Part shown: positions 47,604 to 64,000 of the stretch, piece after piece
How positions within the stretch are numbered: the stretch's first letter is position 1
Layout of the letters: each line of letters starts with the position of its first letter
NCBI GenBank assembly: GCA_964490365.1
Contig: CAZBAG010000003.1
Location: 18,116-82,115 of the forward strand
DNA from: an uncultured Candidatus Saccharibacteria bacterium
Lineage (GTDB): Bacteria > Patescibacteriota > Minisyncoccia > Phycocordibacterales > CSBR16-119
Direction: 5' to 3'
DNA length: 64,000 nucleotides
The notes under the pieces: generated by a model
Databases searched by the model: none
What the model saw: only the letters and a program-made list of their open reading frames with translations
Told to the model about the DNA's origin: nothing
Position numbers and translations under genes: made by a program

Positions 47604-47671
47604 GCCATTTTTTTATATTTTACATAGATTTATATAAAAAGAAACCCCAAGAGTTTTTAACTCTTGGGGTG

Positions 47672-48062: not shown

Positions 48063-48288
48063 AAAGTCCGGTATTACCGGACTTTTTCTTTGCTCGACTT
48101 AGTCCACGAGGTTGTAACCTTTTGGCAATCATATTTAACTGCCAATAAAGAGCACATTTATATCCCGAATTATAGGGACGGGTTGTTTAAGATTGAGCGG
48201 CCGACGGCTGAGGAAATGGCTGCAGCTTTGTAGAAGGTAGAGATATTCACAGTTGACTTGAATACCCCCTAGGGGGTATCATGTTGAT

Positions 48289-48552
48289 ATGAATACAAAC
48301 AAAGAAAAGATGGCTCGTCGCCTAAAAATCATTGAAGGTCAGGTTCGAGGTTTAAGAGAGATGGTCGAAAAAGGGACTTACTGCATTGATGTGATTACCC
48401 AAAGCTCTGCAATCAAGCAAGGACTTTCGAATGTCGAGGATATGCTCATGGAGCATCACCTTTCGCATTGTGTAGTGAACCAAATAAAAGGCGGTACTCC
48501 TGATAAGGCTGTCGGTGAAGTTCTTAAGGTTTATAAGTTAAAGCGCAAATAA
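48289..48552 (+). CDS. csoR: CsoR/RcnR-family metal-sensing transcriptional repressor
   Basis: An 87-aa four-helix-bundle family with YCIDV...HLSHC (Cys-His-Cys ligand set). Confidence 0.8.
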   Translation: MNTNKEKMARRLKIIEGQVRGLREMVEKGTYCIDVITQSSAIKQGLSNVEDMLMEHHLSHCVVNQIKGGTPDKAVGEVLKVYKLKRK

Positions 48553-48555
48553 ACT

Positions 48556-50880: not shown

Positions 50881-50885
50881 TTATC

Positions 50886-51917: not shown

Positions 51918-51930
51918 TATAATTCTAATC

Positions 51931-52320
51931 ATGAAAGCAACTATTATTTCAGTCATTGTGGCGGTGTCCCTCATCGGGGGAGCTTTCTTGCTTAGCCGAG
52001 GAAGTTCTAGCGATGATAATTCTATTCCCGCAAACAATGTCAGCATCGTGGATGGAAAACAAATAATCGAGATACGAGCAAAAGGCGGATACCGGCCACG
52101 AAAGAGTATTGCGAAAGCCGGCATGCCTACAGTGTTGCGATTCAATACCGCAGGCACATTCGACTGCTCATCCTCGGTACGCATTCCAAGTCTCAATATC
52201 AGCAAAGGTCTGCTACAGTCAGGTTCTACTGACATAGATATTGGTACCGGAAAGCTGGGAACACTTCAGGGTTCATGCGGAATGGGCATGTATCCGTTTG
52301 AAGTTGAGTTTCAAAGTTAA
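51931..52320 (+). CDS. Small secreted cupredoxin-like protein
   Basis: Signal anchor followed by a beta-rich domain with Cys and Met ligand candidates (FDCSSS...GSCGMGMYPFEVEF). Confidence 0.45.
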   Translation: MKATIISVIVAVSLIGGAFLLSRGSSSDDNSIPANNVSIVDGKQIIEIRAKGGYRPRKSIAKAGMPTVLRFNTAGTFDCSSSVRIPSLNISKGLLQSGSTDIDIGTGKLGTLQGSCGMGMYPFEVEFQS

Positions 52321-52346
52321 TTATTATTAATGTAAATTAAAAATAT

Positions 52347-52715
52347 ATGACAACAAATAAAAAATTAGAATGGATATTGAGGATTGGTGTAGCCGGTGAA
52401 TTTTTGGGGCATGGTATTTTCGCACTTCAAGGTAAAGCTGATTGGATAAAGTGGACACAGCAGCTTTCAGGTATGGAAGCCTCAACTGCTACAACTTTTA
52501 TTTTTATCGTCGGTCTCGTCGATGTTCTCTTGGCTATTCTGGTTCTAGTAAAACCGGTCCGTCCCATCCTACTTTGGATGGCATTTTGGGGGTTTTGGAC
52601 AGCGCTTGTTCGCCCGCTAGTCGGAATGCCTATATGGGATTTCATCGAGCGTTTCGCTAACTGGGCAGCACCGTTGGCTCTCTACTACGTTTATAGAGTG
52701 AACAAGGATAAGTAG
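52347..52715 (+). CDS. DoxX-like small membrane protein
   Basis: A 122-aa protein with 3-4 transmembrane segments. Confidence 0.35.
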   Translation: MTTNKKLEWILRIGVAGEFLGHGIFALQGKADWIKWTQQLSGMEASTATTFIFIVGLVDVLLAILVLVKPVRPILLWMAFWGFWTALVRPLVGMPIWDFIERFANWAAPLALYYVYRVNKDK

Positions 52716-52720
52716 CTTGT

Positions 52721-52960
52721 TTAAGGTACAAAGTTTGCAGCCTTCTCAGTTGCAGCATCTTTAGCAGGTTGGACTTGTTCGTGCCAACAAACGTCTATAT
52801 CCCATCTGATTGGCCATTCAAATACACAATTAGTTACAAATCGATAAGCAAATATGCAAATAAAGCTGACAGCGAAAATACTTATAAAAAGTATCCACTG
52901 GAACTTTTCAAATTCAGTCATTTTCTTTTCTCTGTGTCTGTGAAATCTGCGACGACTCAT
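52721..52960 (-). CDS. Small membrane protein, hypothetical (79 aa), last gene of the minus-strand operon headed by the RelA/SpoT-fusion gene
   Basis: Overlaps the upstream ORF by 4 nt (operon-like). One transmembrane segment. Confidence 0.3.
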   Translation of the reverse strand: MSRRRFHRHREKKMTEFEKFQWILFISIFAVSFICIFAYRFVTNCVFEWPIRWDIDVCWHEQVQPAKDAATEKAANFVP

Positions 52961-53271
52961 AGTATTGGATTATTATTTTCGTCCACTCGATGATATTTTT
53001 CTTTAAGAATTTTCGTGAATTCATCAAGTTCAGTTTTACTAACCCACTTAGCATTGTAGAATTTTACAAACGCAAACCACTCTTCAGTTGTTGGAGTAAA
53101 GAAGTGAACCATATTGTTTGCGTACTGATCATCCCATGTCCGAATATCAACTCTGCCGTAGGCCCAGTCTCTGATTTTAGGATTTATCAGGGTCGGATCA
53201 GTCCAACCTTGTTCCACAAATATCAGTTGGAATTTGTCTTTGTATTCAGCTGGAGTTTCTTGATCGTTCAT
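52957..53271 (-). CDS. Hypothetical 104-aa protein immediately downstream of the RelA/SpoT-fusion gene
   Basis: Same strand, 77-bp gap to the 974-aa gene. Trp/acidic-rich. No family was recognised. Confidence 0.35.
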   Translation of the reverse strand: MNDQETPAEYKDKFQLIFVEQGWTDPTLINPKIRDWAYGRVDIRTWDDQYANNMVHFFTPTTEEWFAFVKFYNAKWVSKTELDEFTKILKEKYHRVDENNNPIL

Positions 53272-53348
53272 GTCCGCATTTTAACTTCAAACAAAAGATT
53301 AGTGAATGAATGGTAAAAATAGGGTTCCATTCACTGGTTTTATTGAAA

Positions 53349-56273
53349 TTAAGGGCCAAACTCTCGTTTTCGAATCTCAACACCCTCCTCGGCTCGTTTT
53401 CGTTCGTGCATGATTCTTACGTTAAGGTATTTTTCGTATTCCACAGCAAAATTCTTTACGGCGGTATGAGGATCGGTCTTAAGTTTCTGTGCATCCGCTT
53501 TCTTTGCTTCGTAGGCTGTTACAAAACCGTCTTCTCCCATGACTACACCTGTTTGAGAAAGACTACCGAATAGCGAACCCCGAATCTCATCATATTTGGC
53601 ATGGTCATGGTATTTTTTAGCGATTGCTTTTACTACGCCAAATAGAAAATCCTCCCCTTGGCGTTTATTAATTATGGATAAAACTATATCCAGTTCTTCT
53701 TTTCCACCATTATTTACAAGATCAACCAGGGACTGCTCAAAGGTGGGGCTGAAACTTGAAAAGATTTCTTCCAAAAGATGGCTAGCTTCCCATCGAAACA
53801 ACCATTTGTTTTTCTTGCCACCTTTACTGAACCATGCCAAAAGCATAGGTATAATTTTTGTCTCATTTTTCTTTAAGGCAGCATTGAGTTTGTGAAAATT
53901 AAAGGGAACAGCATCGTATCTGTCATATATGTTTCTCTCACGTTTTGATTTAAGTTCGACTCTTTTGTAGAAAAAATCAATTATCTTTTCAGGATACTTT
54001 TCAGCAAGCGGCATCAGAACCTCCTCGATATGATAGTCGATGTGTGGGAACATCAATAAGTTTTCAACAAGTACGTCAAAGTCTTTTTCAGAAAAATCCT
54101 TTAAAATAGATTCTCCTCGAAACCAGACGTTCTGAATCCACCAGTAGTTTTTATTTTTTGTAAGCTCTTTAAGTGTCTTTATAAATAAAGCTCTCGTGTT
54201 TTTATATTTTGGGTAGTTTCTGACTATTGAACCTGTGATGTTGTTAAGGGCTTGCAAATCCTTCTTTGCTTTTGCCTTAGTGAATATTTTATTCAAGATT
54301 TTTCCATCAATTTCTTCCACATAGTCAAATAGGCGTGCTGAAACCGCTAAATGCTTATCATCCATGGTCCATTCACTGACAATCTGTTTTGCCTTCTTCT
54401 TTTGAGGGCCTGACCAAATTCCAGCTATAAGGTGAATGAGAAACGGATCAAGCTCTGGAGTATCGATGAGTTGCAGAGCAAGGTTGGTTTTTTGCTTTCC
54501 AAGCTCATAAAGGAATTTGTTGAAATATTGAAATTCGCCTGGCTCGACGCTGGAGTAGTTTTTAATAATTTTTAGAATTTTAAGTTTCCATTCAGGAATA
54601 TTTTCCTGGGTAATATCCTGCACATATTGAGATACCTGATTGTTTCTTGTTTTTGCTGCTTTACCCCAATCCATTTCCTCGTCAAAACGTCCATCATAGC
54701 CAACAAGCACTCTGTACATTTGGTAATCCTGATTTGAGTGGATTATGGCATCTAAATCTCCAATACGAGCAAAAGACTCTCTCTTAAATCTCCTTATAAG
54801 CCAGTATGACTGCTCCTCAATTTCTTTCATGATCTCATTTTCAGCAGATGGGAGTATAGAAATATAAAAATCAATTAGCTCATTAGTGTTTTCGATAATG
54901 ACCTTCTCCATTTCTTCGTTCTTTTCTCCTCGATCTGAAGTGTAAGATGCTTGCTGTAGTCTTTTCAGCACTTTCTCTTTTAGACTGACGCTGGGAGCAA
55001 GGAAGTAGAGCTTTTTACCAAGTGCCAGCGTTCTTTTTCTGACCTCGAGAAGTGGTTTGTCGGGGTGTAAGGCTCCGAAATGAAAAGTGAATGTTTTATA
55101 ATCAGTCATCTCATGACCCTCAAAAGAAGGGTCGAGAAGGTGACCAACTGCTTCGGCAGCAAGATCAAATCGTTTTAATGTCTCAGCTTCACTCCACGCT
55201 TCAATTTTTTCCAAAAGAAGAATTTGCATTTGATATCCTATCTGTTTCAATGCCCTAAGATCGTACTGTGCAAAATGCTCGAATACTTTCAATACCTTTG
55301 CTTTAATATCCTTGTCTGTATCTTCAGCAATCTCTGCTAACAAATCAAAAGCTTCTATTGGTCTATGAAATCTAAGTTTTTCGATTATATCGAGACACAC
55401 GATTGCCACATCTTTATATGAATGACCGGCAAGCTTACCAAAAGGGGTCTCCATTGGCTCAGTTTTGGTATTTTTTGCTTTGGCGATTACAGCTTTAATT
55501 ATCGTTGCCGCATTAAGGTGTTCTGGAGTCTTGTCTCCAAATTCTTCGATGTATTTTAAAAGGAGCTTTAAATTTTCGTGCAATTCATTATTTGATTTTG
55601 AATCAAGTACGCTCTTAAGAAAGGACTCGTCAAAGATTTTTTTACCTTCCTTTACCTTTTGAATCTCTTTTGCAATGAAGTCAAAAGTATACTGGGCTTC
55701 CTTGATATGATTCTTCATCGTATCTGCCAGGCGTTTTTGTAGAGATTCAAAGGTATGTGAATCAAAGTTTTTGATTTCATCATCAGGTTTATAGGTAGAA
55801 TCATGAGCCATTTCTGACCATGCATGATAAAGGACTGTGGTGAGCTGAATTTCGCATTTTAGTCCATTGAATCTTTGATACTTTGCTGATTTCAAAAGGT
55901 CGTCTTTTAATTTAACAATCAAATGTGATGCATTGTAACCATCTGTAGAAAATCTAAGGTTATGTTTGACAACCTCGAATTCTTTGAATAACAGGTTTGC
56001 AAATCTATCAATATTATCTGTATAAAAAATAACTCTGCAGCCAGAAAGATCATCTATTTCAAGTAAATCTTTAACATTTACCTTGCCACTCTCCAGCTTT
56101 CTTTTTAAGTGATCAGGGTCTTTTTCTCTACTTGCAACCATTTGGTATCCAAATGATTCATTTTTTAATATACTCTCCAAAATTGATTTTACTTCGAGAG
56201 CAAAATCATGAAAGTCCTCCTTTCTCTTTTTATAGCTTTCAATTAAGGTTTTAATATTTTCTTCTTTTGACAT
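53349..56273 (-). CDS. 974-aa protein with an N-terminal RelA/SpoT-type nucleotidyltransferase (alarmone-synthetase-like) domain fused to an approximately 800-aa all-helical C-terminal region
   Basis: RelA/SpoT synthetase-fold motifs are present: DDLSGCRVIFY (compare DxxGxRVI), YNASHLIVKL (compare YRSLHTAV) and CEIQLTTVLYHAWSEMAHDSTYK (compare EIQIRTxxMHxxAExGxAAHWxYK). The remainder is helical with no recognised domain. Confidence 0.75.
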   Translation of the reverse strand: MSKEENIKTLIESYKKRKEDFHDFALEVKSILESILKNESFGYQMVASREKDPDHLKRKLESGKVNVKDLLEIDDLSGCRVIFYTDNIDRFANLLFKEFEVVKHNLRFSTDGYNASHLIVKLKDDLLKSAKYQRFNGLKCEIQLTTVLYHAWSEMAHDSTYKPDDEIKNFDSHTFESLQKRLADTMKNHIKEAQYTFDFIAKEIQKVKEGKKIFDESFLKSVLDSKSNNELHENLKLLLKYIEEFGDKTPEHLNAATIIKAVIAKAKNTKTEPMETPFGKLAGHSYKDVAIVCLDIIEKLRFHRPIEAFDLLAEIAEDTDKDIKAKVLKVFEHFAQYDLRALKQIGYQMQILLLEKIEAWSEAETLKRFDLAAEAVGHLLDPSFEGHEMTDYKTFTFHFGALHPDKPLLEVRKRTLALGKKLYFLAPSVSLKEKVLKRLQQASYTSDRGEKNEEMEKVIIENTNELIDFYISILPSAENEIMKEIEEQSYWLIRRFKRESFARIGDLDAIIHSNQDYQMYRVLVGYDGRFDEEMDWGKAAKTRNNQVSQYVQDITQENIPEWKLKILKIIKNYSSVEPGEFQYFNKFLYELGKQKTNLALQLIDTPELDPFLIHLIAGIWSGPQKKKAKQIVSEWTMDDKHLAVSARLFDYVEEIDGKILNKIFTKAKAKKDLQALNNITGSIVRNYPKYKNTRALFIKTLKELTKNKNYWWIQNVWFRGESILKDFSEKDFDVLVENLLMFPHIDYHIEEVLMPLAEKYPEKIIDFFYKRVELKSKRERNIYDRYDAVPFNFHKLNAALKKNETKIIPMLLAWFSKGGKKNKWLFRWEASHLLEEIFSSFSPTFEQSLVDLVNNGGKEELDIVLSIINKRQGEDFLFGVVKAIAKKYHDHAKYDEIRGSLFGSLSQTGVVMGEDGFVTAYEAKKADAQKLKTDPHTAVKNFAVEYEKYLNVRIMHERKRAEEGVEIRKREFGP

Positions 56274-56289
56274 GAATATTTGTTTACGT

Positions 56290-56308
56290 GTTGATAACTG
56301 GGGTTGAT
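56290..56308. promoter_or_regulatory. Direct repeat GTTGAT-N7-GTTGAT in the 65-bp divergent promoter region, just upstream of a TATAAT box (56327-56332): candidate operator for the LexA-fusion protein
   Basis: GTTGATAACTGGGGTTGAT. It lies between the RelA/SpoT-fusion start (56273, minus strand) and the LexA-methylase start (56339). Confidence 0.35.
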
Positions 56309-56338
56309 GACTTTCTATTTATTTTCTATAATATCACC

Positions 56339-57799
56339 ATGATTACAAAGAAGCAAAAAAGTGTCCTAGATTTCATCACTGATTATCAAAAGAGTAAGGG
56401 GTATGCTCCCGCTCTTGAGGAGATAAGGAAGAAATTTAAACTTGCTTCTGTTTCAACTGCTCATCATCATGTGACAAAGCTTCGTGATTTGGGATATCTT
56501 GAGAAAGAAGAGAACAAACCTAGAGCAATTGATATCGTGGATAGAGAGATGATGGTAAAAATCCCTCTTCTTGGAACTATTGCAGCAGGACAACCCATTG
56601 AAGCTATACAAAATAAAGAGACTATTGCTGTGGCTAAAAGCAAAATACCTTCCTCTTCTGAGGTCTATGCTTTACGTGTTGTCGGAAATAGTATGATTGA
56701 GGAAAATATTAATGATGGAGACATTATTTTAGTAAAAAATCAGCAGACAGCAGAGAATGGACAGAAAGTTGTAGCTCTTATAGATAATCAAGAAACAACA
56801 CTAAAGAAATTTTATAAAGAAAAAGGACATATTCGACTCCAGCCAGCAAATAAGGATATGGAACCTCTTATTTTTAAGAGTACTAAAGATGTATCTGTTC
56901 AAGGCGTAGTGCTTGATGTGATAAAAGAACAAAGGTCCCTTCCTCTAGAGTTACCAGAACAAAAAGAATTAGAAAAATTTAAGGAACTTCCTTTAAATAA
57001 ATTTATATGTGGTGACGCGATACATTATCTTCGAAGACTACCAGATAGGTCAGTAGATCTAATTGTCGCAGATCCTCCTTACAATCTTTCTAAGGGAAGT
57101 AATATCCGTTTTGATAACCAAGTTAATAAACTTAAGGGTTTTGGTGGTACCTGGAATAAAGTTATGGAGCAATGGGATAGCATGCCAATGGCGGATTATT
57201 TTGAATTTACTATTAAGTGGGTACAGGAAGCAAAAAGAGTTTTAAAACCTACAGGTTCTATATGGGTATTTGGAACTTACCACAATATTGGAATTATTAA
57301 CTTTATTTTCCAAACTCTCGGCATCGAAATTATCAATGAAGTAGTTTGGTATAAACGTAATGCTTTTCCAAATCTAGCAGGGCGAAGATTTACAGCAAGT
57401 CACGAGACATTATTGTGGGGTCATGTTGGAAATGAAAAGAGACAATATTACTTTGACTATAAACAATCTAAAAGTTATGCAGACCCTTCTGATTTATTAA
57501 AGGCGGGAGGAAAACAGATGCGTACTGTTTGGGATATTCCAAACAACAAAGGAGCCGGGGAGATTAGCTTTGGTAAGCACCCAACCCAAAAACCATTGAG
57601 TGTTTGTAAAAGGATAATCTCTTTAACTTCTAAACCAGGTGATGTTGTCGTAGCTCCTTTTGGAGGTGCTGGAAGTGAGTGTGTTGCAGCAAAAGAATTA
57701 GGTAGAAATTATTTAGGGTTTGAGCTTGATCAGCAGTATGTGGATATAGCACAGAAACGACTTTCAGCTGTTCGTAATCAAGATACACTTTTCTCATAA
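56339..57799 (+). CDS. Fusion of a complete LexA-type repressor (wHTH plus S24 autopeptidase) to an N6-adenine/N4-cytosine DNA methyltransferase (beta class, DPPY)
   Basis: LexA half: wHTH (LEEIRKKFKLASVSTAHHHVTKLRDLGYLE), cleavage site LLGTIAAGQP, Ser motif LRVVGNSM and Lys motif QKVVALIDNQETTLKKF. Methylase half: DLIVADPPYN (motif IV), a VVVAPFGGAGSE C-terminal AdoMet motif, beta-class order. Start taken at ATG 56339. Confidence 0.85.
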   Translation: MITKKQKSVLDFITDYQKSKGYAPALEEIRKKFKLASVSTAHHHVTKLRDLGYLEKEENKPRAIDIVDREMMVKIPLLGTIAAGQPIEAIQNKETIAVAKSKIPSSSEVYALRVVGNSMIEENINDGDIILVKNQQTAENGQKVVALIDNQETTLKKFYKEKGHIRLQPANKDMEPLIFKSTKDVSVQGVVLDVIKEQRSLPLELPEQKELEKFKELPLNKFICGDAIHYLRRLPDRSVDLIVADPPYNLSKGSNIRFDNQVNKLKGFGGTWNKVMEQWDSMPMADYFEFTIKWVQEAKRVLKPTGSIWVFGTYHNIGIINFIFQTLGIEIINEVVWYKRNAFPNLAGRRFTASHETLLWGHVGNEKRQYYFDYKQSKSYADPSDLLKAGGKQMRTVWDIPNNKGAGEISFGKHPTQKPLSVCKRIISLTSKPGDVVVAPFGGAGSECVAAKELGRNYLGFELDQQYVDIAQKRLSAVRNQDTLFS

Positions 57800-57803
57800 T
57801 GTC

Positions 57804-58610
57804 ATGATTCTAAAACCCTTTATAAAATGGACCGGAAGTAAACGGTCCCAAGCTGAAGAAATAACCTCTTATTTTCCTAAAGAGATTGATACTTACTACG
57901 AACCGTTTTTAGGTAGTGGTGCAATTTTAGGACATCTGAAACCAAAAAAGGCTGTAGGTGGAGATGTAAATAAACCCCTCATTGAGCTTTGGAAAATATT
58001 GAAGGAAGATCCAGAAAAAGTTGCAAAGGAGTATACAAAACATTGGCAATCATTACAGGATGAGGGTCACTTATATTTCTATAAAATAAGAGAACGGTTC
58101 AATAAAAAGCAATCACCAATAGACTTTCTTTTTCTAACCAGGACATGTGTAAATGGTCTTATTCGCTATAACAAAAATGGAGAATTTAATAATTCACTAC
58201 ACCATACACGTAAGGGAATGAATCCTGAGCAACTAAGAAAGATCATTCTTCAGTGGGCTATTCTTATTAAAAGCTACAGATTTTCAGATCAATCTTACGA
58301 GATAACAACAAAAGACGCTGGTAAAAATGATTTTGTGTATCTGGACCCTCCTTATGCAAACACTGGGACTAGATATTTTGGAGGAATCGATTATGACAAT
58401 TTCATTAGTTACCTTGAACAGTTAAATAAGAAGGGTATAAAATTCGCTCTTTCATTTGACGGTACCAGAGGAGATAAATCCTTTGTCGTTGAGATTCCAA
58501 AACATTTATACAAACGGCACATTCTCGTTCACTCGGGAAACTCTGCTTTTAATAAGGTCCAGAACGGAAAGGTGGAGAAAGTTCACGAATCTCTTTACCT
58601 GAATTATTGA
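57804..58610 (+). CDS. Dam-family (D12 class) N6-adenine DNA methyltransferase
   Basis: FIKWTGSKRS, YYEPFLGSGAI (AdoMet site) and LDPPYANTG motifs in alpha-class order. Confidence 0.85.
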   Translation: MILKPFIKWTGSKRSQAEEITSYFPKEIDTYYEPFLGSGAILGHLKPKKAVGGDVNKPLIELWKILKEDPEKVAKEYTKHWQSLQDEGHLYFYKIRERFNKKQSPIDFLFLTRTCVNGLIRYNKNGEFNNSLHHTRKGMNPEQLRKIILQWAILIKSYRFSDQSYEITTKDAGKNDFVYLDPPYANTGTRYFGGIDYDNFISYLEQLNKKGIKFALSFDGTRGDKSFVVEIPKHLYKRHILVHSGNSAFNKVQNGKVEKVHESLYLNY

Positions 58611-60625
58611 TGCAGCACTAAACTAATAATTCCCTTAAATCTATCAGCAAGTTTTTGAAGGGTCGGAATAAGTATAAGCCCAGTCTCTTTTGCTGTTATA
58701 TGTATTATGGTCACCTTATTATCGGTGTTAAATTCTACACCCAGAGCAATATCAGATTTGCTTACCTTTAAGGTTGATTTCAGATCTTTTTCATTTTGAT
58801 AGCGAAAAGCAACACCAGATAAACCAGCCAGGTCGTTAGTATATTCATCTACAGTTCTTAACCAATCGTCTTTACTATACTCACGAAAAGCTATTGGTTT
58901 TTTACTTAAAAGCGCGTGTACATATTTTATCAATCGCGGCCCAATACTTTTCTCTAATGTAAAAGATGTATCTTTCGATTCCATCGAGAGTAAAATCTTA
59001 TCGTTTATGAATTGTATGATGTGGTCTGGCCGTTTAGAAGATTTACCAGATACTCTTGGAAGCGAAGTCCATCGCAATTCTAGTTTCTTGGTAGGTTCGT
59101 AAATGCTTATGCCACTCCAATCGCCACCTGGCGGATTACACAATGATTCATATACTCCTTGCGTTAACGCATTTGAGAAAAGTAGATGCAATACAGCATC
59201 AACATCATGTTCACCAAAATTAGGTATTTCTTTTGATGCAGGTAGAGCCTTCTTTTCAAACACCTTATCGTTTGGACTAACTAAAAGGCCATAATTTTTC
59301 AGTGAACTACTTGTACTACTATCCACTAGTATTCCATTACTAAGATTAACGATTGCTTCCCAAAGTCCATTAATTGAAGCAAGTTTTCTCATATCTTTTT
59401 CAAGCAAGGTCCAAGTAGATTGTTTGGCAGGACCATATACTACAGTAAGCAAATCTACATCTTCAATTCCAAATATCATTCGAGCTAAGGGAACTAGTCC
59501 TCGATCAGGTCGAGAGTCGTCACCTCGAGGTTTAAAGCCGGCTACCCAGACACAGACTAAAGGTTTTTCAGATTTTGAAACCCATTGAATGAACTCTGCA
59601 CCAGCCTTTTCGCCATAGATTCTAGTGATTTCTTTGCCAAATTCTGCCCGTTTATCGGTGGGGATAATACATATTGGCATTTCTCTAGAACCTATCGCTC
59701 TGGCCCCATTCTTTATAGTTGTTTCGAGTAGATTCTTAAAAGTGGGCGTTAGAGTTTTGATACCAGTTTTCTTATTCCATGGCATTGCTTTTTTAATCAA
59801 CCAGTTTAACTTTTCTGCACCAGTTTTTTGAGAATAAAGTTCGGTCCATTCAGTTGCAGTCAGAACATCTGATCTTTTACGCTGTGTGGTAAGTATCTCT
59901 AAAATTTTAAGAACCTTTGTCTCGACTTGAGTGTGCGCTTCCTTAAAATCAGTCGAAAGCAAAATTCCTCTCACTATTTCAATTGATTCCTTTGTTCCAA
60001 AGCAATCTTTAAAAATCTCAATGATTTTCTGATCGCTAGATGGACTTGGTATATAAACGGGTAGTGACACCGAATTCCTACTTGCACCTAATACTGCATA
60101 CGCAAATGGAACTAGTGGGTTTGGAAATCGTGCAGCCTTAATTTTTCGATCCGAATCGAGCTCCTGGCCACCTAATTCAGTAAAATACAAATAAGGGATA
60201 CCAGCATATGCCAAAGCAAGAGCTCGCCCTGTTCTTTGCCACGCATTATTGCCTGCAGGGAGTGCCCCACTGAATTCTAGAGCTAGAATAGGAACCTCAC
60301 ACTCTTCTCCTCCACTTATTTCTAATTTTGTAATAATTGCATCAGGAGCTTCTCGCAAGCTTCCGCCAAGAGATGCGATATGATCTGTAAGCGCAAAATT
60401 CCAACGACCATAACCCGCAAAAAACTGTACTGTAAAATCCTCACCGTTTCCGGCAATGAATTTGTATTTTGGAGCGAAGGCCGGTCCAGATATTAATTCT
60501 GGCTGGCTACCACCTAAAGAATTTACTATAAGCTTTAATGCGCTCTCACATTCTAAAATATTGTCTCCATGGATACGCAACTGGTGCTGGGTCATTGAAA
60601 TGTATTGAAAAATATTGTATTTCAA
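58604..60625 (-). CDS. Putative restriction endonuclease partner of the two methyltransferases (673 aa, family not recognised)
   Basis: Convergent with, and overlapping by 7 nt, the Dam-like gene. Large enough for an enzyme cleaving outside its site or a fused specificity domain. The call rests on position only. Confidence 0.4.
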   Translation of the reverse strand: MKYNIFQYISMTQHQLRIHGDNILECESALKLIVNSLGGSQPELISGPAFAPKYKFIAGNGEDFTVQFFAGYGRWNFALTDHIASLGGSLREAPDAIITKLEISGGEECEVPILALEFSGALPAGNNAWQRTGRALALAYAGIPYLYFTELGGQELDSDRKIKAARFPNPLVPFAYAVLGASRNSVSLPVYIPSPSSDQKIIEIFKDCFGTKESIEIVRGILLSTDFKEAHTQVETKVLKILEILTTQRKRSDVLTATEWTELYSQKTGAEKLNWLIKKAMPWNKKTGIKTLTPTFKNLLETTIKNGARAIGSREMPICIIPTDKRAEFGKEITRIYGEKAGAEFIQWVSKSEKPLVCVWVAGFKPRGDDSRPDRGLVPLARMIFGIEDVDLLTVVYGPAKQSTWTLLEKDMRKLASINGLWEAIVNLSNGILVDSSTSSSLKNYGLLVSPNDKVFEKKALPASKEIPNFGEHDVDAVLHLLFSNALTQGVYESLCNPPGGDWSGISIYEPTKKLELRWTSLPRVSGKSSKRPDHIIQFINDKILLSMESKDTSFTLEKSIGPRLIKYVHALLSKKPIAFREYSKDDWLRTVDEYTNDLAGLSGVAFRYQNEKDLKSTLKVSKSDIALGVEFNTDNKVTIIHITAKETGLILIPTLQKLADRFKGIISLVLHQ

Positions 60626-60788
60626 TTCTACTTCAATTTCTTCATTTTTCCTATCTGGATCAAAGCGCCGCCGAATTAGCCCCTAAATTGCCCTGTGTAC
60701 GCTTTTCGCAGCATGTTCAGGGCTTTTTACGTTCCTGGACCAATACCCTCAAATTTGCACATATTCGGACCTACACTTAAAAGGTCCT

Positions 60789-61060
60789 AAAAGTAATGCA
60801 CACCGATTTGCATATTTTATGGCATTAGGATTACAGCAGTCCTTTAGGGCAAAAGTAATGCACCATTTTTTGCTCTTTTGGGACAGTACGATTACAGCAA
60901 TCCTTTAAGGTAAAAGTAATTCCTATATTTAGACACTTTTGCATCTATAGGATTAAGTAGTTCTTTGGTCCAAGTAATTCCTGCAGTTAGAAAATTATAG
61001 GACCTTAGAATAAACAAATCGGCGATCCAAAAGTAATGCACGCAATTTTGCACGAAATTG
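60789..61060. repeat. Iteron-like array: 4-5 degenerate tandem units of about 60 bp, each containing AAAAGTAATGCAC and (C)GATTACAGCARTCCTTTARGG
   Basis: AAAAGTAATGCAC occurs at 60789, 60851 and 61029, with variants AAAAGTAATTCC at 60912 and AAGTAATTCC at 60972. GATTACAGCAGTCCTTTAGGG is at 60830 and GATTACAGCAATCCTTTAAGG at 60891. An interlocking hairpin lies at 61088-61136. Confidence 0.55.
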
Positions 61061-61326
61061 GATCTACGATACATAACACTTCCAGTTGCGCGGAAAGAGC
61101 TGAGTCACTCGCAACTGGGACTCAGCTCTTTCTGTTTTCAGGAAGTCTGATACAAGGTCGAACACCCTCATGCTAAGCAAACAAGCCCTAGAAGAATATA
61201 AGGAAATTCATAAGCAGGAAACCAATACGATCCTAGCTGATGAAGTCTTGCTTGATGAGGCAATTAATCTCCTCACGCTTTTTGATCGCGTCTATCGGCC
61301 GATCAAGAAAGTGTGGCTACAAGAAT

Positions 61327-62238
61327 ATGGAAGGAATCACACTCGATCCAGAATGGGAACTACCAAACAGAAAAGAAGAGATTGCGCATCAGTATCATCT
61401 GAAGAAAATACAAGAACTTCAACAGATGGTAGATCGGTCCAAGTTGCGGGGTAAACGCAGGGTCACACGATTTTTTGTCGATAATGAATATGTGGAGAAC
61501 GGCTATATGGAAAAATTGCCGAAGCTCTGTACCTTGGTGTATCAAGGACTCTTATATCATGGCAATACCGAAACGCAGACAGCGTGGCCGAGTTTTAAGA
61601 AACTCACCGGACACACTGGAGAAAAGAATCGAAACTACATATCAAATGCTCTTCGGTTGCTCAAAGAGTGCGGCATCATTGGTGTGGTCCAGTGCAAGAA
61701 AGGATTTAAAACCTTAAACCTTTACTATTTTCAGTCGACCGAATATTGGATTAGTCTCGAACATACTACTAAACGTCTTAAGCTTACCGATAGCCTTGCG
61801 CAGTATCCAAACGTGACCCTCCGTAGTATCAAAAGACGTGGTGTCCGTAGGAAGAACGTTGATACTCTAACTAACCAAATAAATAACAATCCGAATTCTG
61901 TAACTAGCATCGGAGATGTCTTAGCAAGGAGAATGCAGAAATGGCAGAAAAGCCCAGAGGTTGCTATTCCAGAGGGTTCTCGCAATACTGTCGTTCGCAC
62001 AGCATATGAGGGAGATGTAGAGGTAAGTACCATACACTTAGATAGCCCAGATATACCCGAGGAAAATGGTGAAAAAACGGTACTCCGTAGTGTTCCAGAA
62101 GATACCACGCAGGTTCCCGTAATAACGGGAAATTTACGGGAAAAAATCGCTGAATTGGATACCACGCAAACACACCATGAATTAGCCCTAGAAGACATAA
62201 CCAAAGAAGATATTGGACCAGGTAGCGCAACATTATAA
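61327..62238 (+). CDS. Winged-helix replication-initiator-like protein (HTH_36/RepA-like)
   Basis: LVYQGLLYHGNTETQTAWPSFKKLTGHTGEKNRNYISNALRLLKECGIIGV reads as a Rep-type winged helix. Start taken at ATG 61327. An overlapping upstream ORF 61170-61454 lies in another frame. Confidence 0.45.
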   Translation: MEGITLDPEWELPNRKEEIAHQYHLKKIQELQQMVDRSKLRGKRRVTRFFVDNEYVENGYMEKLPKLCTLVYQGLLYHGNTETQTAWPSFKKLTGHTGEKNRNYISNALRLLKECGIIGVVQCKKGFKTLNLYYFQSTEYWISLEHTTKRLKLTDSLAQYPNVTLRSIKRRGVRRKNVDTLTNQINNNPNSVTSIGDVLARRMQKWQKSPEVAIPEGSRNTVVRTAYEGDVEVSTIHLDSPDIPEENGEKTVLRSVPEDTTQVPVITGNLREKIAELDTTQTHHELALEDITKEDIGPGSATL

Positions 62239-63874
62239 AACCATGAATAAAACACAACCAATCAAATACTTTCTCTATGCCCGTAAATCGAGCGAGGCAG
62301 AAGATCGACAAGCAGCATCCATCGATGCTCAAAAGGACGAACTCTTAAAGATCGCTAAAGAACAAGGGCTGGTTATCGTTGATATCTTGGAAGAATCACA
62401 ATCAGCCAAGAAGCCAGGAAGACCAGTATTCAACAAAATGCTTGAGAGAATCTATAAAAGCGAAGCCAACGGTATTGTATGTTGGAAATTGGACCGACTA
62501 GCCCGTAATCCAGTAGACGGTGGACAGATAAGTTGGATGTTGCAGCAGAGTGTGATAGCTCAGATTGTTACCTTCGGCCGAACGTATTATCCAACTGACA
62601 ACGTTCTCATGATGCAGGTTGAGCTTGGAATGGCCAACCAATACATCCGAGATCTTTCAGTAAACGTAAAGAGAGGACTCGCTAAGAAGGTCAGAGAAGG
62701 TTGGCTTCCAAGCGGGGCACCGATTGGGTACATGAGCACACCCGATAGAGATAAAGGATTTAAAACAATCAGTATCGATCCAAACCGATTCCCAGTGGTC
62801 CGCAGACTCTTTGACCTTATGCTTACCGGCACTTACACTGTGGCTCAAATTTGGAATATATCCCGTAAGGAGTTGAATTTGAAAACATATCAGCGAAGAA
62901 ATATTGGTGGTAAGCATCTTTCAAAAAGTGCAGTGTATGCAATTTTAAGCAATCACTTTTACTACGGATGGTTTGAGTACCCATATAAAAGCGGAGAATG
63001 GCATAAGGGCGCACATGAGCCGATGATTACCGAAGATGAGTTTAATAAGGTTCAAGTACTTATGGGGCGCAAGACAACTCCTCGGCTTGAGAAGAATTTA
63101 AGTTTTGCTTTTACAGGGCTTATGAAGTGCGGCACCTGTGGTTGTAGTATTACGGCTCAAGCCAAAGTTAAGCGATGTAAGAATGGCAACGTCCACCATT
63201 ATGTCTACTACAACTGCACCAAGAAGAAAGTCGATACCAACTGTCCAGAGCGATGTGTCGAACTAAAGGATCTGACACTCGATATCAAAGAAAAAATAAG
63301 TGAGATCACTATTTCAGAAAAGTTTAAGAACTGGGCTATCAAGCATCTCCATGTAATGAGAAAGAATGAAGCTGACAGTGATACGTTGGTCCTTAAAGGA
63401 AAGCATAAAGAACTTGAAGAAGTTACTAAGAATTTGCAGTCACTTACGCTTAATTTCACCTCACCAAAGAACCAAGACCGATTATTGATATCTGATGATG
63501 AATACCAGAACCTCAAAGCCGGAATGGTTAAACGAAAGCTAATTCTTGAAGATGAGCTCAAGGTCCAAAAGAAACAGGTCCTTGAGTGGGTGGAACTTAC
63601 CGAGCGAACCTTTGATTTTGCATGTTATGCCCATATTTGGTTTGAAAAAGGAGACGATAAGACGAGGAGGGCGATACTTTCATGTTTAGGCTCGAACCTC
63701 ACCCTAAAAGGCAAAAAACTCTTTGTTAATTACCATTCTTTCATCAAGACGATGATGAAAAGTCGTCAGGCGGTTGAAGAAGAATTAGAGAAGGTTAGAA
63801 CCTCTGAAAAGCGAGTCTATAAAAGACAAAACCCCACAAATCGTGAGGTTTCGTCACTAGGGCTCCCCGAGTAG
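62213..63874 (+). CDS. Large serine recombinase (resolvase catalytic domain, recombinase domain and zinc ribbon)
   Basis: N-terminal YARKSSEAEDRQAASIDAQ...CWKLDRLARN with the catalytic Ser, a recombinase domain and a CGTCGC...YYNC zinc ribbon. The protein is 553 aa. The last five codons are templated by a tRNA 3'-end-like sequence. Confidence 0.9.
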   Translation: MDQVAQHYKTMNKTQPIKYFLYARKSSEAEDRQAASIDAQKDELLKIAKEQGLVIVDILEESQSAKKPGRPVFNKMLERIYKSEANGIVCWKLDRLARNPVDGGQISWMLQQSVIAQIVTFGRTYYPTDNVLMMQVELGMANQYIRDLSVNVKRGLAKKVREGWLPSGAPIGYMSTPDRDKGFKTISIDPNRFPVVRRLFDLMLTGTYTVAQIWNISRKELNLKTYQRRNIGGKHLSKSAVYAILSNHFYYGWFEYPYKSGEWHKGAHEPMITEDEFNKVQVLMGRKTTPRLEKNLSFAFTGLMKCGTCGCSITAQAKVKRCKNGNVHHYVYYNCTKKKVDTNCPERCVELKDLTLDIKEKISEITISEKFKNWAIKHLHVMRKNEADSDTLVLKGKHKELEEVTKNLQSLTLNFTSPKNQDRLLISDDEYQNLKAGMVKRKLILEDELKVQKKQVLEWVELTERTFDFACYAHIWFEKGDDKTRRAILSCLGSNLTLKGKKLFVNYHSFIKTMMKSRQAVEEELEKVRTSEKRVYKRQNPTNREVSSLGLPE

Positions 63875-63895
63875 GATTCGAACCTACGGCCAATC
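63866..63895 (-). repeat. Truncated tRNA 3' end (T-arm plus acceptor 3' strand) on the minus strand, abutting the recombinase stop: probable attachment-site core
   Basis: The reverse complement reads GTAGG-TTCGAAT-CCTAC-TCGGGGA-G. No compatible 5' half was found in the remaining 105 nt of the window. Confidence 0.45.
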
Positions 63896-64000
63896 GATTA
63901 CATGTATCCTAAAATTACTTAAAGGCATGGACTATATCATCACCATGTTCCAAATGGAATTTAGGTGCAAGGCGCTTCGATTTTGAATTTCAAAACCTAC

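What the first reader, a model, noticed from the sequence alone, without database searches (positions are those of the whole stretch)
60640..61170. Iteron-like tandem repeats plus an interlocking hairpin upstream of the Rep-like gene: probable replication origin carried inside the chromosome
The 13-mer AAAAGTAATGCAC recurs at about 60-bp spacing (60789, 60851, 61029, with two degenerate copies between). It alternates with a second conserved block GATTACAGCARTCCTTTARGG. A two-level inverted repeat follows (CCAGTTGCG...CGCAACTGG nested with AAAGAGCTGAGTC...GACTCAGCTCTTT). This is the layout of iteron-type plasmid or phage origins. It sits immediately upstream of a winged-helix initiator-like gene and also forms the upstream region of the divergent putative endonuclease gene.
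Basis: seen in the sequence. Interest (0 to 1): 0.5.

Follow-up and report, generated by a model that had tools for sequence, protein, structure and literature searches.

The report
Repeat array plus RNA switch
The repeats and hairpins are real and conserved in more than 60 related mobile elements of ultra-small (Patescibacteria/CPR) bacteria; the hairpins are a two-state RNA leader ahead of a small-protein, Rep-like and integrase operon, and the repeats look like a protein-binding array whose role as a replication origin is possible but unproven.

Summary
The window holds five ~60-nt units with an AAAAGTAAT core at 60789-61081. Two interlocked inverted repeats follow at 61082-61134.

The region is the non-coding head of a 3.2-kb module (60672-63900). 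In order, the module holds:
- a terminator-like hairpin
- the repeat array
- the hairpins
- a 94-aa ORF
- a Rep-like winged-helix gene
- a large serine recombinase whose end abuts a tRNA-Asn gene

About 70 Patescibacteria loci carry the same module. None was found in the plasmid or viral collections searched.

The hairpins are not an origin structure. Both helices covary: 99.9% of cells pair and 9 pairs show compensatory changes. All wobbles are G·U on the + strand. The helices abut with zero-length linkers, so they cannot coexist. One nucleotide covaries with two alternative partners. This is a bistable + strand RNA with no Rfam match.

The array varies from 0 to about 8 units and shows no base-pairing constraint. 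It has no DnaA boxes or AT-rich unwinding region. It does not co-vary with the highly variable Rep-like protein.

Best reading: an operator/promoter array plus a leader RNA switch controlling the operon of an integrated element. Origin function remains a minority possibility.

The parts
60672..60735 (+). Left edge of the conserved 3.2-kb module. It holds terminator-like hairpin T1: GCCCTG at 60690-60695 pairs with CAGGGC at 60718-60723, followed by a T-run at 60724-60728. The loop segment GTGTACGCTTTTC is invariant.
   Evidence: blastn homology to about 55 loci starts sharply at 60670-60680. In the stem, 92% of cells pair and 3 pairs show changes on both sides; most non-Watson-Crick cells that still pair are G·U on the + strand.
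60742..60788 (+). Proto-unit: ATTTGCAC, then GGACC (60767-60771), loop TACACTTAAAA, then GGTCC (60783-60787).
   Evidence: Repeat family D2. It is conserved in most loci. Some stem changes are compensatory (GACCC/GGGTC, AACCCT/AGGGTT) but mismatches are also frequent.
60789..61081 (+). Array of five ~60-nt units.
- U1 60789-60850 and U2 60851-60911: AAAAGTAATGCAC type.
- U3 60912-60969 and U4 60971-61028: AAGTAATTCCT type, degenerate.
- U5 61029-61081: AAAAGTAATGCAC type, ending in TACGAT at 61066-61071.
   Evidence: In 56 distinct arrays, 1-6 units were scored, median spacing is 61 nt, and the last unit lies a fixed 64-68 nt from helix B. Array length runs from 248 to 578 nt in ~60-nt steps. 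The motif is about 500-fold enriched and always on the + strand.
61082..61118 (+). Helix A of the RNA switch: 61082-61090 pairs with 61110-61118 (9 bp). Its loop contains the 5' arm of helix B.
   Evidence: 100% of 333 cells pair, and 3 of 9 pairs show compensatory changes. L031 adds further compensatory changes.
61091..61134 (+). Helix B of the RNA switch: 61091-61106 pairs with 61119-61134 (16 bp). It is followed by TTTT at 61135-61138.
   Evidence: 99.8% of cells pair and 6 pairs are compensatory. There are 52 G·U cells on the + strand, which would be A·C mismatches on the - strand. MFE is -38 kcal/mol with z = -4.1. TTTT follows the helix in 22 of 37 variants.
61126..61145 (+). Helix D, the alternative partner of the 3' arm of helix B: CTCTTTCTG at 61126-61134 pairs with CAGGAAG at 61139-61145.
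   Evidence: It forms in all constrained 'state A' folds. 87% of cells pair. Alignment column 55 (window 61128) covaries with both column 23 (helix B) and column 81 (helix D): G/C/G in 17 sequences, A/T/A in 10, A/T/G in 4.
61154..61162 (+). Nearly invariant 9-mer AAGGTCGAA between the switch and the start codon. Its function is unexplained.
   Evidence: Conserved in at least 90% of sequences in alignment A2.
61170..61454 (+). Small ORF of 94 aa. It has a conserved N-terminal helical hairpin (residues 4-58) and a basic disordered tail. It overlaps the Rep-like gene by 128 nt in another reading frame.
   Evidence: The ORF stays open for 73-94 codons (mostly 83-94) in the ~58 intact divergent loci; it is truncated in L074 and L080. 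There are 106 homologue clusters, all unnamed and without a Pfam domain. AF2 pLDDT exceeds 90 for residues 1-50. No PDB fold match.
61327..62238 (+). Rep-like protein of 303 aa. It has a single winged helix (HTH_36, residues ~53-136) and a disordered C-terminal half. It is the most variable gene of the module.
   Evidence: Pfam HTH_36 matches in 25 of 25 members. All named PHROG hits are replication-initiator families. AF2 and Foldseek give DnaD N-terminal domain 2v79 and RepA_N 4pql/5kbj, weakly. Identity across loci is 31-85%.
62243..63874 (+). Large serine recombinase with Resolvase, Recombinase and Zn_ribbon_recom domains. Its last codons overlap the tRNA gene on the other strand.
   Evidence: It is 70-93% identical across loci. 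The conserved end GAGGTTTCGTCACTAGGGCTCC is followed by tRNA sequence in most loci.
63860..64000 (-). tRNA-Asn(GTT) 3' exon at 63860-63900, then the 3' part of a group I intron inserted in the anticodon loop, cut off by the window end. This is the integration target of the element.
   Evidence: ARAGORN finds intact tRNA-Asn at the same junction in L020, L024 and L080. Rfam Intron_gpI reaches gathering score in L013 and L028, and matches weakly (17.8 bits against a gathering score of 50, E 0.014) in the window. Intron position 35/36 agrees with PMC13011429.

Best explanation
The finding is the cis-regulatory head of the core operon (small basic protein, Rep-like protein, large serine recombinase) of a mobile element integrated at tRNA-Asn in a Patescibacteria chromosome. 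It has three parts.

1. A + strand terminator-like hairpin ends and insulates the variable cargo genes upstream (partly shown).
2. A tandem array of 0 to about 8 homologous ~60-nt units follows. Each unit carries an invariant AAAAGTAAT core about 27 nt upstream of a TAnGAT, -10-like hexamer. The units are duplications of the promoter/operator segment. The last unit, at a fixed distance from the switch, is the likely promoter, with a start site near 61078. The core motif is read as sequence by a conserved protein, not as a base-paired structure (inferred). The small protein or a host factor is a better candidate than the variable Rep-like protein.
3. The interlocked inverted repeats are the first ~65 nt of the transcript and form a bistable RNA (shown by covariation).
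   - State A has hairpin A plus hairpin D.
   - State B has one 16-17-bp hairpin followed by UUUU.
   - State B probably attenuates, or otherwise silences, expression of the replication and integration genes, and state A permits it (inferred).
   - The trigger is unknown.

The array may additionally serve as the element's replication origin after excision, but nothing tested here requires that.
For: **Conservation and context**
- The module is conserved in about 70 loci with sharp homology boundaries at 60672 and about 63900.
- The order array, switch, small ORF, Rep-like gene, recombinase holds in every locus with enough sequence, apart from two internally deleted derivatives (L074, L080).

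**RNA switch**
- Helices A and B pair in 99.9% of cells and have 9 compensatory pairs. No shuffle of 500 reaches the observed values, and slid controls pair in only 36-49% of cells.
- All 52 wobble cells are G·U on the + strand.
- The helices abut with 0-nt linkers, so they are mutually exclusive (inference from pseudoknot geometry).
- Constrained folds give two states of similar energy in all 45 sequences printed (of 60 extracted).
- Helix D pairs in 87% of cells, and one column covaries with two partners.
- The divergent L031 copy keeps both helices through extra compensatory changes.
- There is one copy per locus, always on the + strand upstream of the operon.

**Array**
- The motif is about 500-fold enriched and strand-fixed.
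- The last unit lies a fixed 64-68 nt from helix B.
- Units are homologous to the segment that runs into helix A.
- Proposed unit stems show decay without compensation, with A·C mismatches as common as G·U.
- T1 is a + strand hairpin followed by a T-run. Cargo ORFs end at or just before it in most of the loci listed.

**Operon** (analogy from my own knowledge)
- The small ORF is the first gene, as in plasmid cop-rep operons such as pMV158 copG-repB.
Against: - No transcription data exist, and no sigma-70 promoter is found by scan. The units lack a -35 hexamer at 17 nt, although host promoters in this window are sigma-70-like.
- The U-tract after helix B is absent in 15 of 37 variants, so classical intrinsic termination cannot be the universal read-out.
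- No antisense promoter, leader peptide or ligand pocket was identified, so the trigger is unknown.
- No Shine-Dalgarno sequence is evident before the small ORF.
- The protein that binds the array is not identified.
- Array regions fold better than shuffles on both strands, slightly better on the + strand (z -3.8 against -2.8). Some RNA structure in the array therefore cannot be excluded.
Confidence: 0.5

Rival explanations
1. The array is an iteron-type origin bound by the Rep-like protein, and the element replicates as a plasmid-like circle after excision. The hairpin region assists initiation, for example as a single-strand priming signal.
For: - Same-orientation direct repeats lie immediately upstream of a gene whose family matches only replication-initiator, DnaD-like and O-like phage families. 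Its closest folds are DnaD N-terminal domain and RepA_N initiators.
- It is the only repeated DNA in the 3.2-kb module.
- Sub-motifs within a unit recur at about 11-12-bp spacing, which places them on one face of the helix (read by eye).
- Internally deleted derivatives (L074, L080) keep the array together with the att end.
- A strand-specific hairpin with G·T pairs is also compatible with single-stranded DNA.
Against: - There are no DnaA boxes beyond chance and no AT-rich unwinding element.
- Unit spacing is 56-63 bp and varies.
- Near-identical arrays (type GGTG) occur with Rep clades 0, 1, 2 and 4, which are 31-85% identical. Their recognition-helix residues differ (KNRNYI, TNIRSV, KNPTSI) while AAAAGTAAT is invariant.
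- L031 keeps the operon without any array.
- Other Rep-like subfamilies (L016 type) have no upstream repeats.
- The Rep-like protein has one winged helix, not the WH1-WH2 fold of iteron Reps.
- No relative occurs on plasmids or viral contigs, and no circular contigs were found.
- A G·U pair is the majority state in helix B, and two mutually exclusive covarying helices argue for RNA.
Confidence: 0.25
2. The whole 400-nt region is one long non-coding RNA or 5' UTR. The repeated AAAAGUAAU motifs are RNA-level binding sites that titrate a protein, such as the small basic protein, and so set the state of the downstream switch. This would resemble a CsrB-like sponge.
For: - All units are on the strand of the operon.
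- T1 upstream and the switch downstream are both + strand RNA structures.
- Arrays fold better than shuffles, more so on the + strand in 12 of 14 cases.
- The small protein has a basic disordered tail typical of nucleic-acid binders.
Against: - Unit-level stems show no compensatory change and no G·U bias.
- RNAalifold energies are similar on both strands: -67 against -61 kcal/mol.
- No promoter is identified upstream of the array.
- The terminator-like T1 lies directly upstream.
Confidence: 0.12
3. The array and T1 are recombination accessory DNA: the left attachment arm, or binding sites for the serine recombinase or a directionality factor. On this view the 3.2-kb module is itself the complete mobile unit.
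For: - The homology boundary at 60672 is sharp, with unrelated left flanks.
- AGCCCCTA at the left edge is an inverted copy of TAGGGCT at the right end (read by eye).
- Deletion derivatives retain both ends.
- About 2.9-kb contigs occur in a multi-copy MAG.
Against: - Large serine recombinases are not known to need accessory arrays (my own knowledge).
- The inverted similarity is only 7-8 bp and is not centred on the inferred crossover.
- No inverted copy of the right-end arm was found within 6-10 kb in any locus.
- Co-oriented cargo genes end exactly at T1, which suggests cargo and module are one element.
- Copper-resistance cargo is shared across loci.
Confidence: 0.08
4. The array is a non-functional tandem duplication of the promoter region that drifts in copy number. 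Only the last unit and the switch matter.
For: - Copy number varies from 0 to about 8.
- Inner units in the window are degenerate (U3, U4).
- Units are homologous to the promoter-proximal segment.
Against: - The 9-mer core is invariant in nearly all units across loci whose Rep-like proteins are only about 31-45% identical to the window's.
- Arrays persist in 56 distinct versions.
- Orientation and roughly 60-nt phasing are maintained.
Confidence: 0.05

Closest known systems
Rep-leader attenuators and Cop proteins of Gram-positive plasmids (pT181 and pIP501/pAMbeta1 leaders; pMV158 copG-repB operon)
   Same: - A structured leader with mutually exclusive helices lies upstream of a replication gene, and one conformer ends in a hairpin plus U-run.
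- A small protein gene sits immediately upstream of rep and is co-oriented with it.
- The promoter/operator lies directly upstream.
   Different: - No antisense countertranscript or promoter for one was found.
- The helices exclude each other by interlocking (A-B-A'-B' with zero-length linkers), not by competing for one shared strand. The exception is helix B against helix D.
- The U-run is missing in about 40% of variants.
- The small protein is a helical hairpin with a basic tail, not a ribbon-helix-helix or HTH Cop protein.
- The host is an integrated element in Patescibacteria.
- There is no sequence or Rfam relationship.
Iteron origins of theta plasmids and phages (P1 oriR/incC, R6K gamma, F oriS, pPS10, lambda ori)
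   Same: - Several same-orientation direct repeats lie next to the initiator gene.
- In P1 and pPS10 the rep promoter is embedded in the repeats, so the repeats serve for both regulation and initiation.
   Different: - The unit is about 61 bp with a 9-13-bp core, not 17-22 bp at ~22-bp phasing.
- There are no DnaA boxes and no AT-rich unwinding element.
- The Rep-like protein has one winged helix of the HTH_36/DnaD-like type, not the WH1-WH2 Rep_3 fold.
- The repeats do not co-vary with the Rep-like protein.
Replication modules of integrated satellites and islands (SaPI/PICI pri-rep-ori; phage replisome organisers with HTH_36/DnaD-like domains and ori repeats)
   Same: - A chromosomally integrated element carries its own initiator-like gene next to repeat DNA and an integrase.
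- The Rep-like family hits the same PHROG families as phage replication initiators.
   Different: - In SaPIs the origin lies 3' of rep, and Rep is a helicase. Here the repeats are 5' and the protein has no helicase or primase domain.
- The integrase is a large serine recombinase.
- No relative occurs in viral contigs.
tRNA-targeting integrative islands with large serine recombinases (phiC31/Bxb1-type integrases; SCCmec Ccr; XisF)
   Same: - The recombinase has Resolvase, Recombinase and zinc-ribbon domains. Its best NCBIfam similarities are XisF and CcrB, well below their cut-offs.
- The gene sits at the very end of the element, abutting the attachment site.
- The island carries cargo genes for restriction-modification and copper resistance.
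   Different: - The target is the 3' end of tRNA-Asn, which is often intron-containing.
- The recombinase ORF reads into the tRNA on the opposite strand.
- The left end was not located.
- The element carries a Rep-like gene and a structured leader.

Membership tests
Iteron-type replication origin | Three or more same-orientation direct repeats adjacent to the initiator gene | tested here: met
   Five units lie in the window, and 1-6 or more in 56 distinct arrays, all on the + strand upstream of the Rep-like gene.
Iteron-type replication origin | The repeat sequence is specific to, and co-varies with, its cognate Rep | tested here: not met
   The same array type and an invariant AAAAGTAAT core occur with Rep clades that are 31-85% identical and have different recognition-helix residues.
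Iteron-type replication origin | Adjacent AT-rich DNA-unwinding element and DnaA boxes | tested here: not met
   No DnaA box with 1 mismatch or fewer was found. AT content peaks at 75% in 40-nt windows, against a locus background of about 58-65%.
Iteron-type replication origin | Initiator of the Rep_3/RepE/pi class (two winged helices) | tested here: not met
   AF2 shows one winged helix followed by a disordered tail. Pfam gives HTH_36 only.
Iteron-type replication origin | Supports autonomous replication in cis | not testable with these tools
   No circular contigs and no plasmid or viral relatives were found. This is negative evidence and not decisive.
Cis-acting RNA switch or attenuator in a 5' leader | Two or more mutually exclusive helices, each supported by covariation | tested here: met
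   Helices A and B pair in 99.9% of cells with 9 compensatory pairs. Helix D pairs in 87% of cells. One column covaries with two partners.
Cis-acting RNA switch or attenuator in a 5' leader | Structure formed by the sense strand of the downstream gene | tested here: met
   All 52 wobble cells are G·U on the + strand. The reverse-strand covariance-model hits score 24-39 bits against 84-94 bits for the forward strand.
Cis-acting RNA switch or attenuator in a 5' leader | One conformer is an intrinsic terminator (stem followed by a U-tract) | tested here: inconclusive
   TTTT follows helix B in 22 of 37 variants and is absent in 15. The simple terminator scan does not call it, because the loop exceeds 8 nt.
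Cis-acting RNA switch or attenuator in a 5' leader | Transcription start upstream of the structure and an identified effector | not testable with these tools
   No expression data are available. No canonical promoter, no conserved leader peptide (read by eye) and no antisense promoter were found.
Any described RNA family (Rfam 15) | Match to a curated covariance model | tested here: not met
   No hit at gathering score. Only chance-level hits of at most 20 bits appear at E up to 10.
Large-serine-recombinase integrative element | Recombinase with Resolvase, Recombinase and zinc-ribbon domains at an element end next to the attachment site | tested here: met
   The conserved end GAGGTTTCGTCACTAGGGCTCC abuts tRNA-Asn in most loci and abuts unrelated DNA in five.
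Large-serine-recombinase integrative element | Second attachment site that delimits the element | tested here: inconclusive
   No inverted or direct copy of the right-end arm was found within the window or the fetched flanks.
CRISPR array | Identical repeats separated by unique spacers, with cas genes nearby | tested here: not met
   The inter-core segments are themselves conserved between units and between loci. The proteins scanned between 42.5 and 64 kb gave no Cas family; short ORFs there were not scanned.

The most novel reading that the evidence does not exclude
The 3.2-kb module is the self-sufficient replication-and-integration core of an integrative plasmid of Patescibacteria. The AAAAGTAAT array is its origin, the Rep-like protein its initiator, and a previously undescribed bistable leader RNA gates both replication and integrase expression. 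On this reading it would be the first replicon (origin plus initiator plus control RNA) that I know of for the candidate phyla radiation. Neither my knowledge nor the three literature searches run here turned up a plasmid or replicative vector for this group.
Probability: 0.22. Interest if true: 0.78.

Novelty: new variant of a known kind. Interest (0 to 1): 0.55.

Why it matters
- It defines a widespread family of tRNA-Asn-integrating islands in Patescibacteria. I found no description of this family in the literature I could search. The islands carry swappable defence and metal-resistance cargo.
- It adds a covariation-supported two-state RNA motif that matches no Rfam family. Such motifs are rare finds and can be tested directly by probing and reporter assays.
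- Patescibacteria lack genetic tools. If the Rep-like gene plus the array can drive replication, or if the recombinase and its tRNA-Asn site can drive integration, the module is a ready-made chassis for vectors in this group.
- Rep-like genes are shuffled against a constant control region. This is an unusual pattern that bears on how incompatibility and host adaptation evolve in integrated elements.

Tried and rejected
**Leads that gave nothing**
- Rfam at gathering score and at E up to 10: no family.
- blastn and tblastn against plasmids and phages, and pattern and protein scans of IMG/VR: nothing.
- PDB sequence search with the Rep-like profile: nothing.
- Foldseek of the small protein: no meaningful match.
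- Literature searches: no description of this element.

**Ideas rejected**
- True H-type pseudoknot. Rejected because the linkers between the helices are 0 nt while the stems are 9 and 16 bp.
- CRISPR-like array. Rejected because the 'spacers' are conserved.
- Canonical sigma-70 promoter in each unit. The TTGCAC to TAnGAT spacing is 11-12 nt, and no hit comes from the scan.
- Conserved RNA hairpins inside the units (AAAAG/CUUUU with an inner stem). Rejected because pairs decay without compensation and A·C is as common as G·U. Consensus folds on the + and - strands are similar.
- DnaA boxes or an unwinding element: absent.
- Internal origin repeats within the rep or recombinase genes: none.
- Circular contigs: none.
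- Left attachment site by direct or inverted copy of the right end: not found. A 15 of 21 match at 47767 is suggestive only.
- Conserved leader peptide in the switch: the ORF differs between the two variants I read (window and L001).

**Technical notes**
- Ten of the 55 metagenome pattern hits were chance matches in GC-rich DNA and were excluded.
Full report

Yes.
- The 13-mer AAAAGTAATGCAC occurs exactly three times in the 64-kb window, at 60789, 60851 and 61029.
- Two degenerate copies lie between them, at 60912 and about 60971.
- The second block, GATTACAGCARTCCTTTARGG, occurs at 60829 and 60890. Shuffled sequence gives none.
- Tandem Repeats Finder reports a 61-nt period.
- Both inverted repeats are present: CCAGTTGCG at 61082-61090 with CGCAACTGG at 61110-61118, and GAAAGAGCTGAGTC at 61093-61106 with GACTCAGCTCTTTC at 61119-61132.
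- They are interlocked (A-B-A'-B'), not nested.

**2. What surrounds it?**

The genes to the right, in order:
- a 94-aa ORF at 61170-61454
- a 303-aa protein with one HTH_36 winged helix at 61327-62238
- a large serine recombinase at 62243-63874 with Resolvase, Recombinase and Zn_ribbon_recom domains

To the left lie a 673-aa protein with no family match, two DNA methyltransferases (one fused to LexA and an S24 peptidase), a 974-aa protein and a copper-resistance cluster.

A protein-based scan of one genome per species found 37 related loci. Nearly all are in Patescibacteria (CPR) MAGs, on contigs of up to 594 kb. A DNA pattern for the hairpins found 45 further genuine metagenome loci plus 10 chance GC-rich matches.

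blastn of window 50000-64000 against all loci shows homology starting sharply at about 60672 and ending at about 63900. The finding is therefore the non-coding head of a conserved 3.2-kb module.

Gene conservation across loci is uneven:
- the recombinase is 70-93% identical
- the first 53 residues of the small ORF are 58-98% identical in intact copies
- the Rep-like protein is only 31-85% identical

No relative was found in PLSDB plasmids, GenBank phages or IMG/VR. No fetched contig is circular.

**3. The right end is a tRNA.**

The conserved end GAGGTTTCGTCACTAGGGCTCC is followed in most loci by the reverse complement of tRNA-Asn(GTT). ARAGORN calls this tRNA in L020, L024 and L080. In the window and about ten other loci, the tRNA carries a group I intron in the anticodon loop:
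- Rfam Intron_gpI reaches gathering score in L013 and L028
- it gives a partial hit at 63907-64000 in the window
- this matches the published 35/36 introns of Patescibacteria tRNA-Asn (PMC13011429)

In five loci the sequence diverges right after GGGCTCC, which places the crossover at the tRNA 3' end. The element is thus an integrated island with its serine recombinase at the tRNA-proximal end.

The left end was not found. Left flanks differ between loci. They mostly encode co-oriented restriction-modification or defence-like genes that stop exactly at the module boundary.

**4. The interlocked hairpins are a bistable RNA.**

I aligned 37 distinct versions (A2) and counted pairs.

| Helix | Window coordinates | Cells paired | Pairs with compensatory change |
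|---|---|---|---|
| A (9 bp) | 61082-61090 with 61110-61118 | 100% | 3 |
| B (16 bp) | 61091-61106 with 61119-61134 | 99.8% | 6 |
| D (7 bp) | 61126-61134 with 61139-61145 | 87% | 3 |

- No shuffle of 500 reaches the observed values for A and B. Sliding the partner by 1-3 columns drops pairing to 36-49%.
- All 52 non-Watson-Crick cells that still pair are G·U on the + strand. One position is G·U in 27 of 37 sequences. On the - strand these would be A·C mismatches, so the structure belongs to the + strand, the sense strand of the operon.
- A conserved wobble pair favours RNA over single-stranded DNA (inference).
- The 3' end of arm A abuts arm B, and arm A' abuts arm B'. A pseudoknot with stems of 9 and 16 bp and zero-length loops is sterically impossible (established pseudoknot geometry). 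The helices must therefore be alternatives.

Constrained folding gives two states in all 45 sequences printed, of 60 extracted:
- State A, at -20 to -38 kcal/mol, has hairpin A plus hairpin D. Hairpin D pairs the 3' arm of B with a downstream GGAAG(AG) segment.
- State B, at -29 to -47 kcal/mol, has one long hairpin.

Alignment column 55 (window 61128) covaries with its helix-B partner and its helix-D partner together: G/C/G in 17 sequences, A/T/A in 10 and A/T/G in 4. A nucleotide with two covarying partners is the signature of a switch.

A covariance model finds exactly one copy per locus, always on the + strand. It also finds a divergent copy in L031 that keeps both helices through additional compensatory changes. 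Rfam has no matching family.

Helix B is followed by TTTT in 22 of 37 variants. Termination is therefore a plausible read-out, but not a universal one.

**5. The repeat array.**

- Between T1 and the switch lie 248-578 nt, varying in ~60-nt steps.
- The 56 distinct arrays have 1-6 scored units with a median spacing of 61 nt. The last unit lies at a fixed 64-68 nt from helix B.
- L031 has no array at all.
- Units come in several types: AAAAGTAAT followed by GCAC-N7-TGCAC, AAGTAAT followed by TCCTACAGTTAGGAA, and an AATTGATTCCGCA type.
- About 27 nt after the core comes TA(G/C/A)GAT, then a TCC that corresponds to the TTCC opening helix A. The units are therefore tandem duplicates of the segment that runs into the leader.
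- The core is about 500-fold enriched in arrays and always on the + strand.

Tests for RNA structure in the units were negative.
- Proposed stems pair in only 53-94% of units.
- The 5' motif stays constant while the 3' partner decays.
- A·C mismatches are as frequent as G·U.
- Consensus folds score similarly on both strands. Single-sequence z-scores slightly favour the + strand.

The core is therefore read as sequence, most simply by a protein on DNA.

Origin hallmarks are missing: no DnaA boxes and no AT-rich unwinding element. No other repeats exist in the module.

The decisive point against classical iterons is the lack of co-variation with the Rep-like protein.
- Near-identical arrays (type GGTG) sit upstream of Rep-like proteins from four clades.
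- The predicted recognition helices of these clades differ (GEKNRNYISNA, GCTNIRSVISA, GEKNPTSISKA).
- AAAAGTAAT never changes.

Host promoters in the window are sigma-70-like, TTGAnA-17-TAnnnT. The units have a -10-like hexamer but no -35 at 17 nt. The AAAAGTAAT core would be centred near -42, the position of a class II activator site (inference).

**6. The proteins.**

*Rep-like protein*
- AF2 (pLDDT 58) gives an N-terminal helix, one winged helix at residues ~53-136, and a disordered C-terminal half.
- The best Foldseek matches are the DnaD N-terminal domain (probability 0.97) and staphylococcal RepA_N initiators (0.75-0.84). E-values are weak, and Fur and MarR regulators also appear.
- Every named PHROG family hit by family members is a replication initiator, a DnaD-like loader, an O-like protein or a primosomal protein. 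phrog_1032 matches 11 of 25 members, best E 9e-8.
- It is therefore plausibly a replication organiser, but this is not proven.

*Small ORF*
- It stays open for 73-94 codons (mostly 83-94) in the ~58 intact divergent loci. This holds although its last ~40 codons overlap the Rep-like gene in another frame.
- It has 106 unnamed homologue clusters.
- It folds as a confident helical hairpin (residues 4-18 and 24-58) with a basic disordered tail.
- It has no PDB fold match.

**7. Most likely mechanism.**

What is shown:
- a conserved + strand two-state RNA directly upstream of the operon
- a strand-fixed, phased array of sequence motifs that continues into the leader
- a + strand terminator-like hairpin at the cargo boundary (92% of cells paired)

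What is inferred:
- The last unit is the operon promoter/operator.
- Upstream units are extra binding sites for the same factor.
- The RNA starts a few nucleotides before helix A.
- Hairpin A forms first during transcription and favours the A+D state, which is ON.
- Conversion to the more stable hairpin B, followed by its U-run, shuts the operon down.
- An unknown factor sets the balance. Candidates are the small basic protein, the Rep-like protein, or an RNA.

This resembles the Cop-protein and leader-attenuation circuits that set the copy number of Gram-positive plasmids (my own knowledge). The array could double as the origin, as iterons do in P1 or pPS10, but the tests in sections 5 and 6 lower that reading. 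My estimates:
- regulatory head plus RNA switch: 0.5
- iteron origin: 0.25
- long RNA or sponge: 0.12
- recombination accessory site: 0.08
- neutral duplication: 0.05

**8. Novelty and value.**

The components are of known kinds: an integrated island, a serine recombinase, an initiator-like gene, direct repeats and a leader switch. Three things look new.
- The RNA motif matches nothing in Rfam.
- I found no description of this element family.
- The combination occurs in a phylum for which I know of no replicon and no vector.

Shuffling of Rep-like genes against a constant control region is an unusual pattern. I rate interest at 0.55. It would be higher if replication is demonstrated.

Noticed in passing
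window 63860-64000 (- strand): The 3' exon of tRNA-Asn(GTT) is followed by a group I intron inserted at anticodon-loop position 35/36, so ARAGORN misses the gene. The recombinase stop codon (63872-63874) lies inside the tRNA on the opposite strand.
   Followed up: yes
window 56288-57799 (+): A single ORF fuses a LexA DNA-binding domain and an S24 self-cleaving peptidase to an N6/N4 DNA methyltransferase. It sits beside a Dam-like methylase (57804-58610) and a 673-aa protein with no family match (58604-60625, - strand). This could be an SOS-style, cleavage-controlled restriction-modification system.
   Followed up: no
window 53349-56273 (-): A 974-aa protein has no Pfam match and only a weak RelA/SpoT-like (small alarmone synthetase) signal at its N-terminus. 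It sits among the island cargo.
   Followed up: no
window 61327-61454: The small ORF and the Rep-like gene overlap by 128 nt in different reading frames. Both frames stay open in the ~58 intact divergent loci, so the overlap is under selection.
   Followed up: partly
window 61154-61162 and 60696-60708: Two short sequences are almost invariant and unexplained: AAGGTCGAA between the switch and the start codon, and GTGTACGCTTTTC in the loop of the T1 hairpin. The latter resembles the 3' arm of helix B.
   Followed up: no
window 48289-52715; L002, L070, L016, L017, L019, L033: A copper-resistance cluster (CsoR-like repressor, CopA ATPase, HMA-DsbD_2 protein, cupredoxin) recurs at 75-80% DNA identity near Rep-like/recombinase modules in other genomes, in either orientation. 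It is probably shared island cargo.
   Followed up: partly
window 47604-48288: About 680 nt have no ORF of 60 aa or more. The stretch is partly self-complementary and has no Rfam hit. It contains TAATAGGGCTCGTCGACTACTAAT at about 47764, which matches the right-end junction at 15 of 21 positions. It could be the island's left end.
   Followed up: partly
L074 1-520; L080: These are internally deleted derivatives. They keep the array, the switch and a stub of the small ORF, joined directly to the last ~50-270 nt of the recombinase gene and the att end. They may be non-autonomous copies.
   Followed up: partly
L031 1-300: This lineage has the RNA switch (with extra compensatory changes) and the full operon, but no AAAAGTAAT units. 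Its 95-nt upstream region instead holds a palindrome, CTTGTATA..TATACAAG.
   Followed up: partly
L010, L034, L037 (one MAG); L009, L025 (one MAG): Several copies of the module, or of related modules, occur in the same metagenome-assembled genome. Some lie on ~2.9-kb contigs, as expected for a multi-copy element that breaks assemblies.
   Followed up: no
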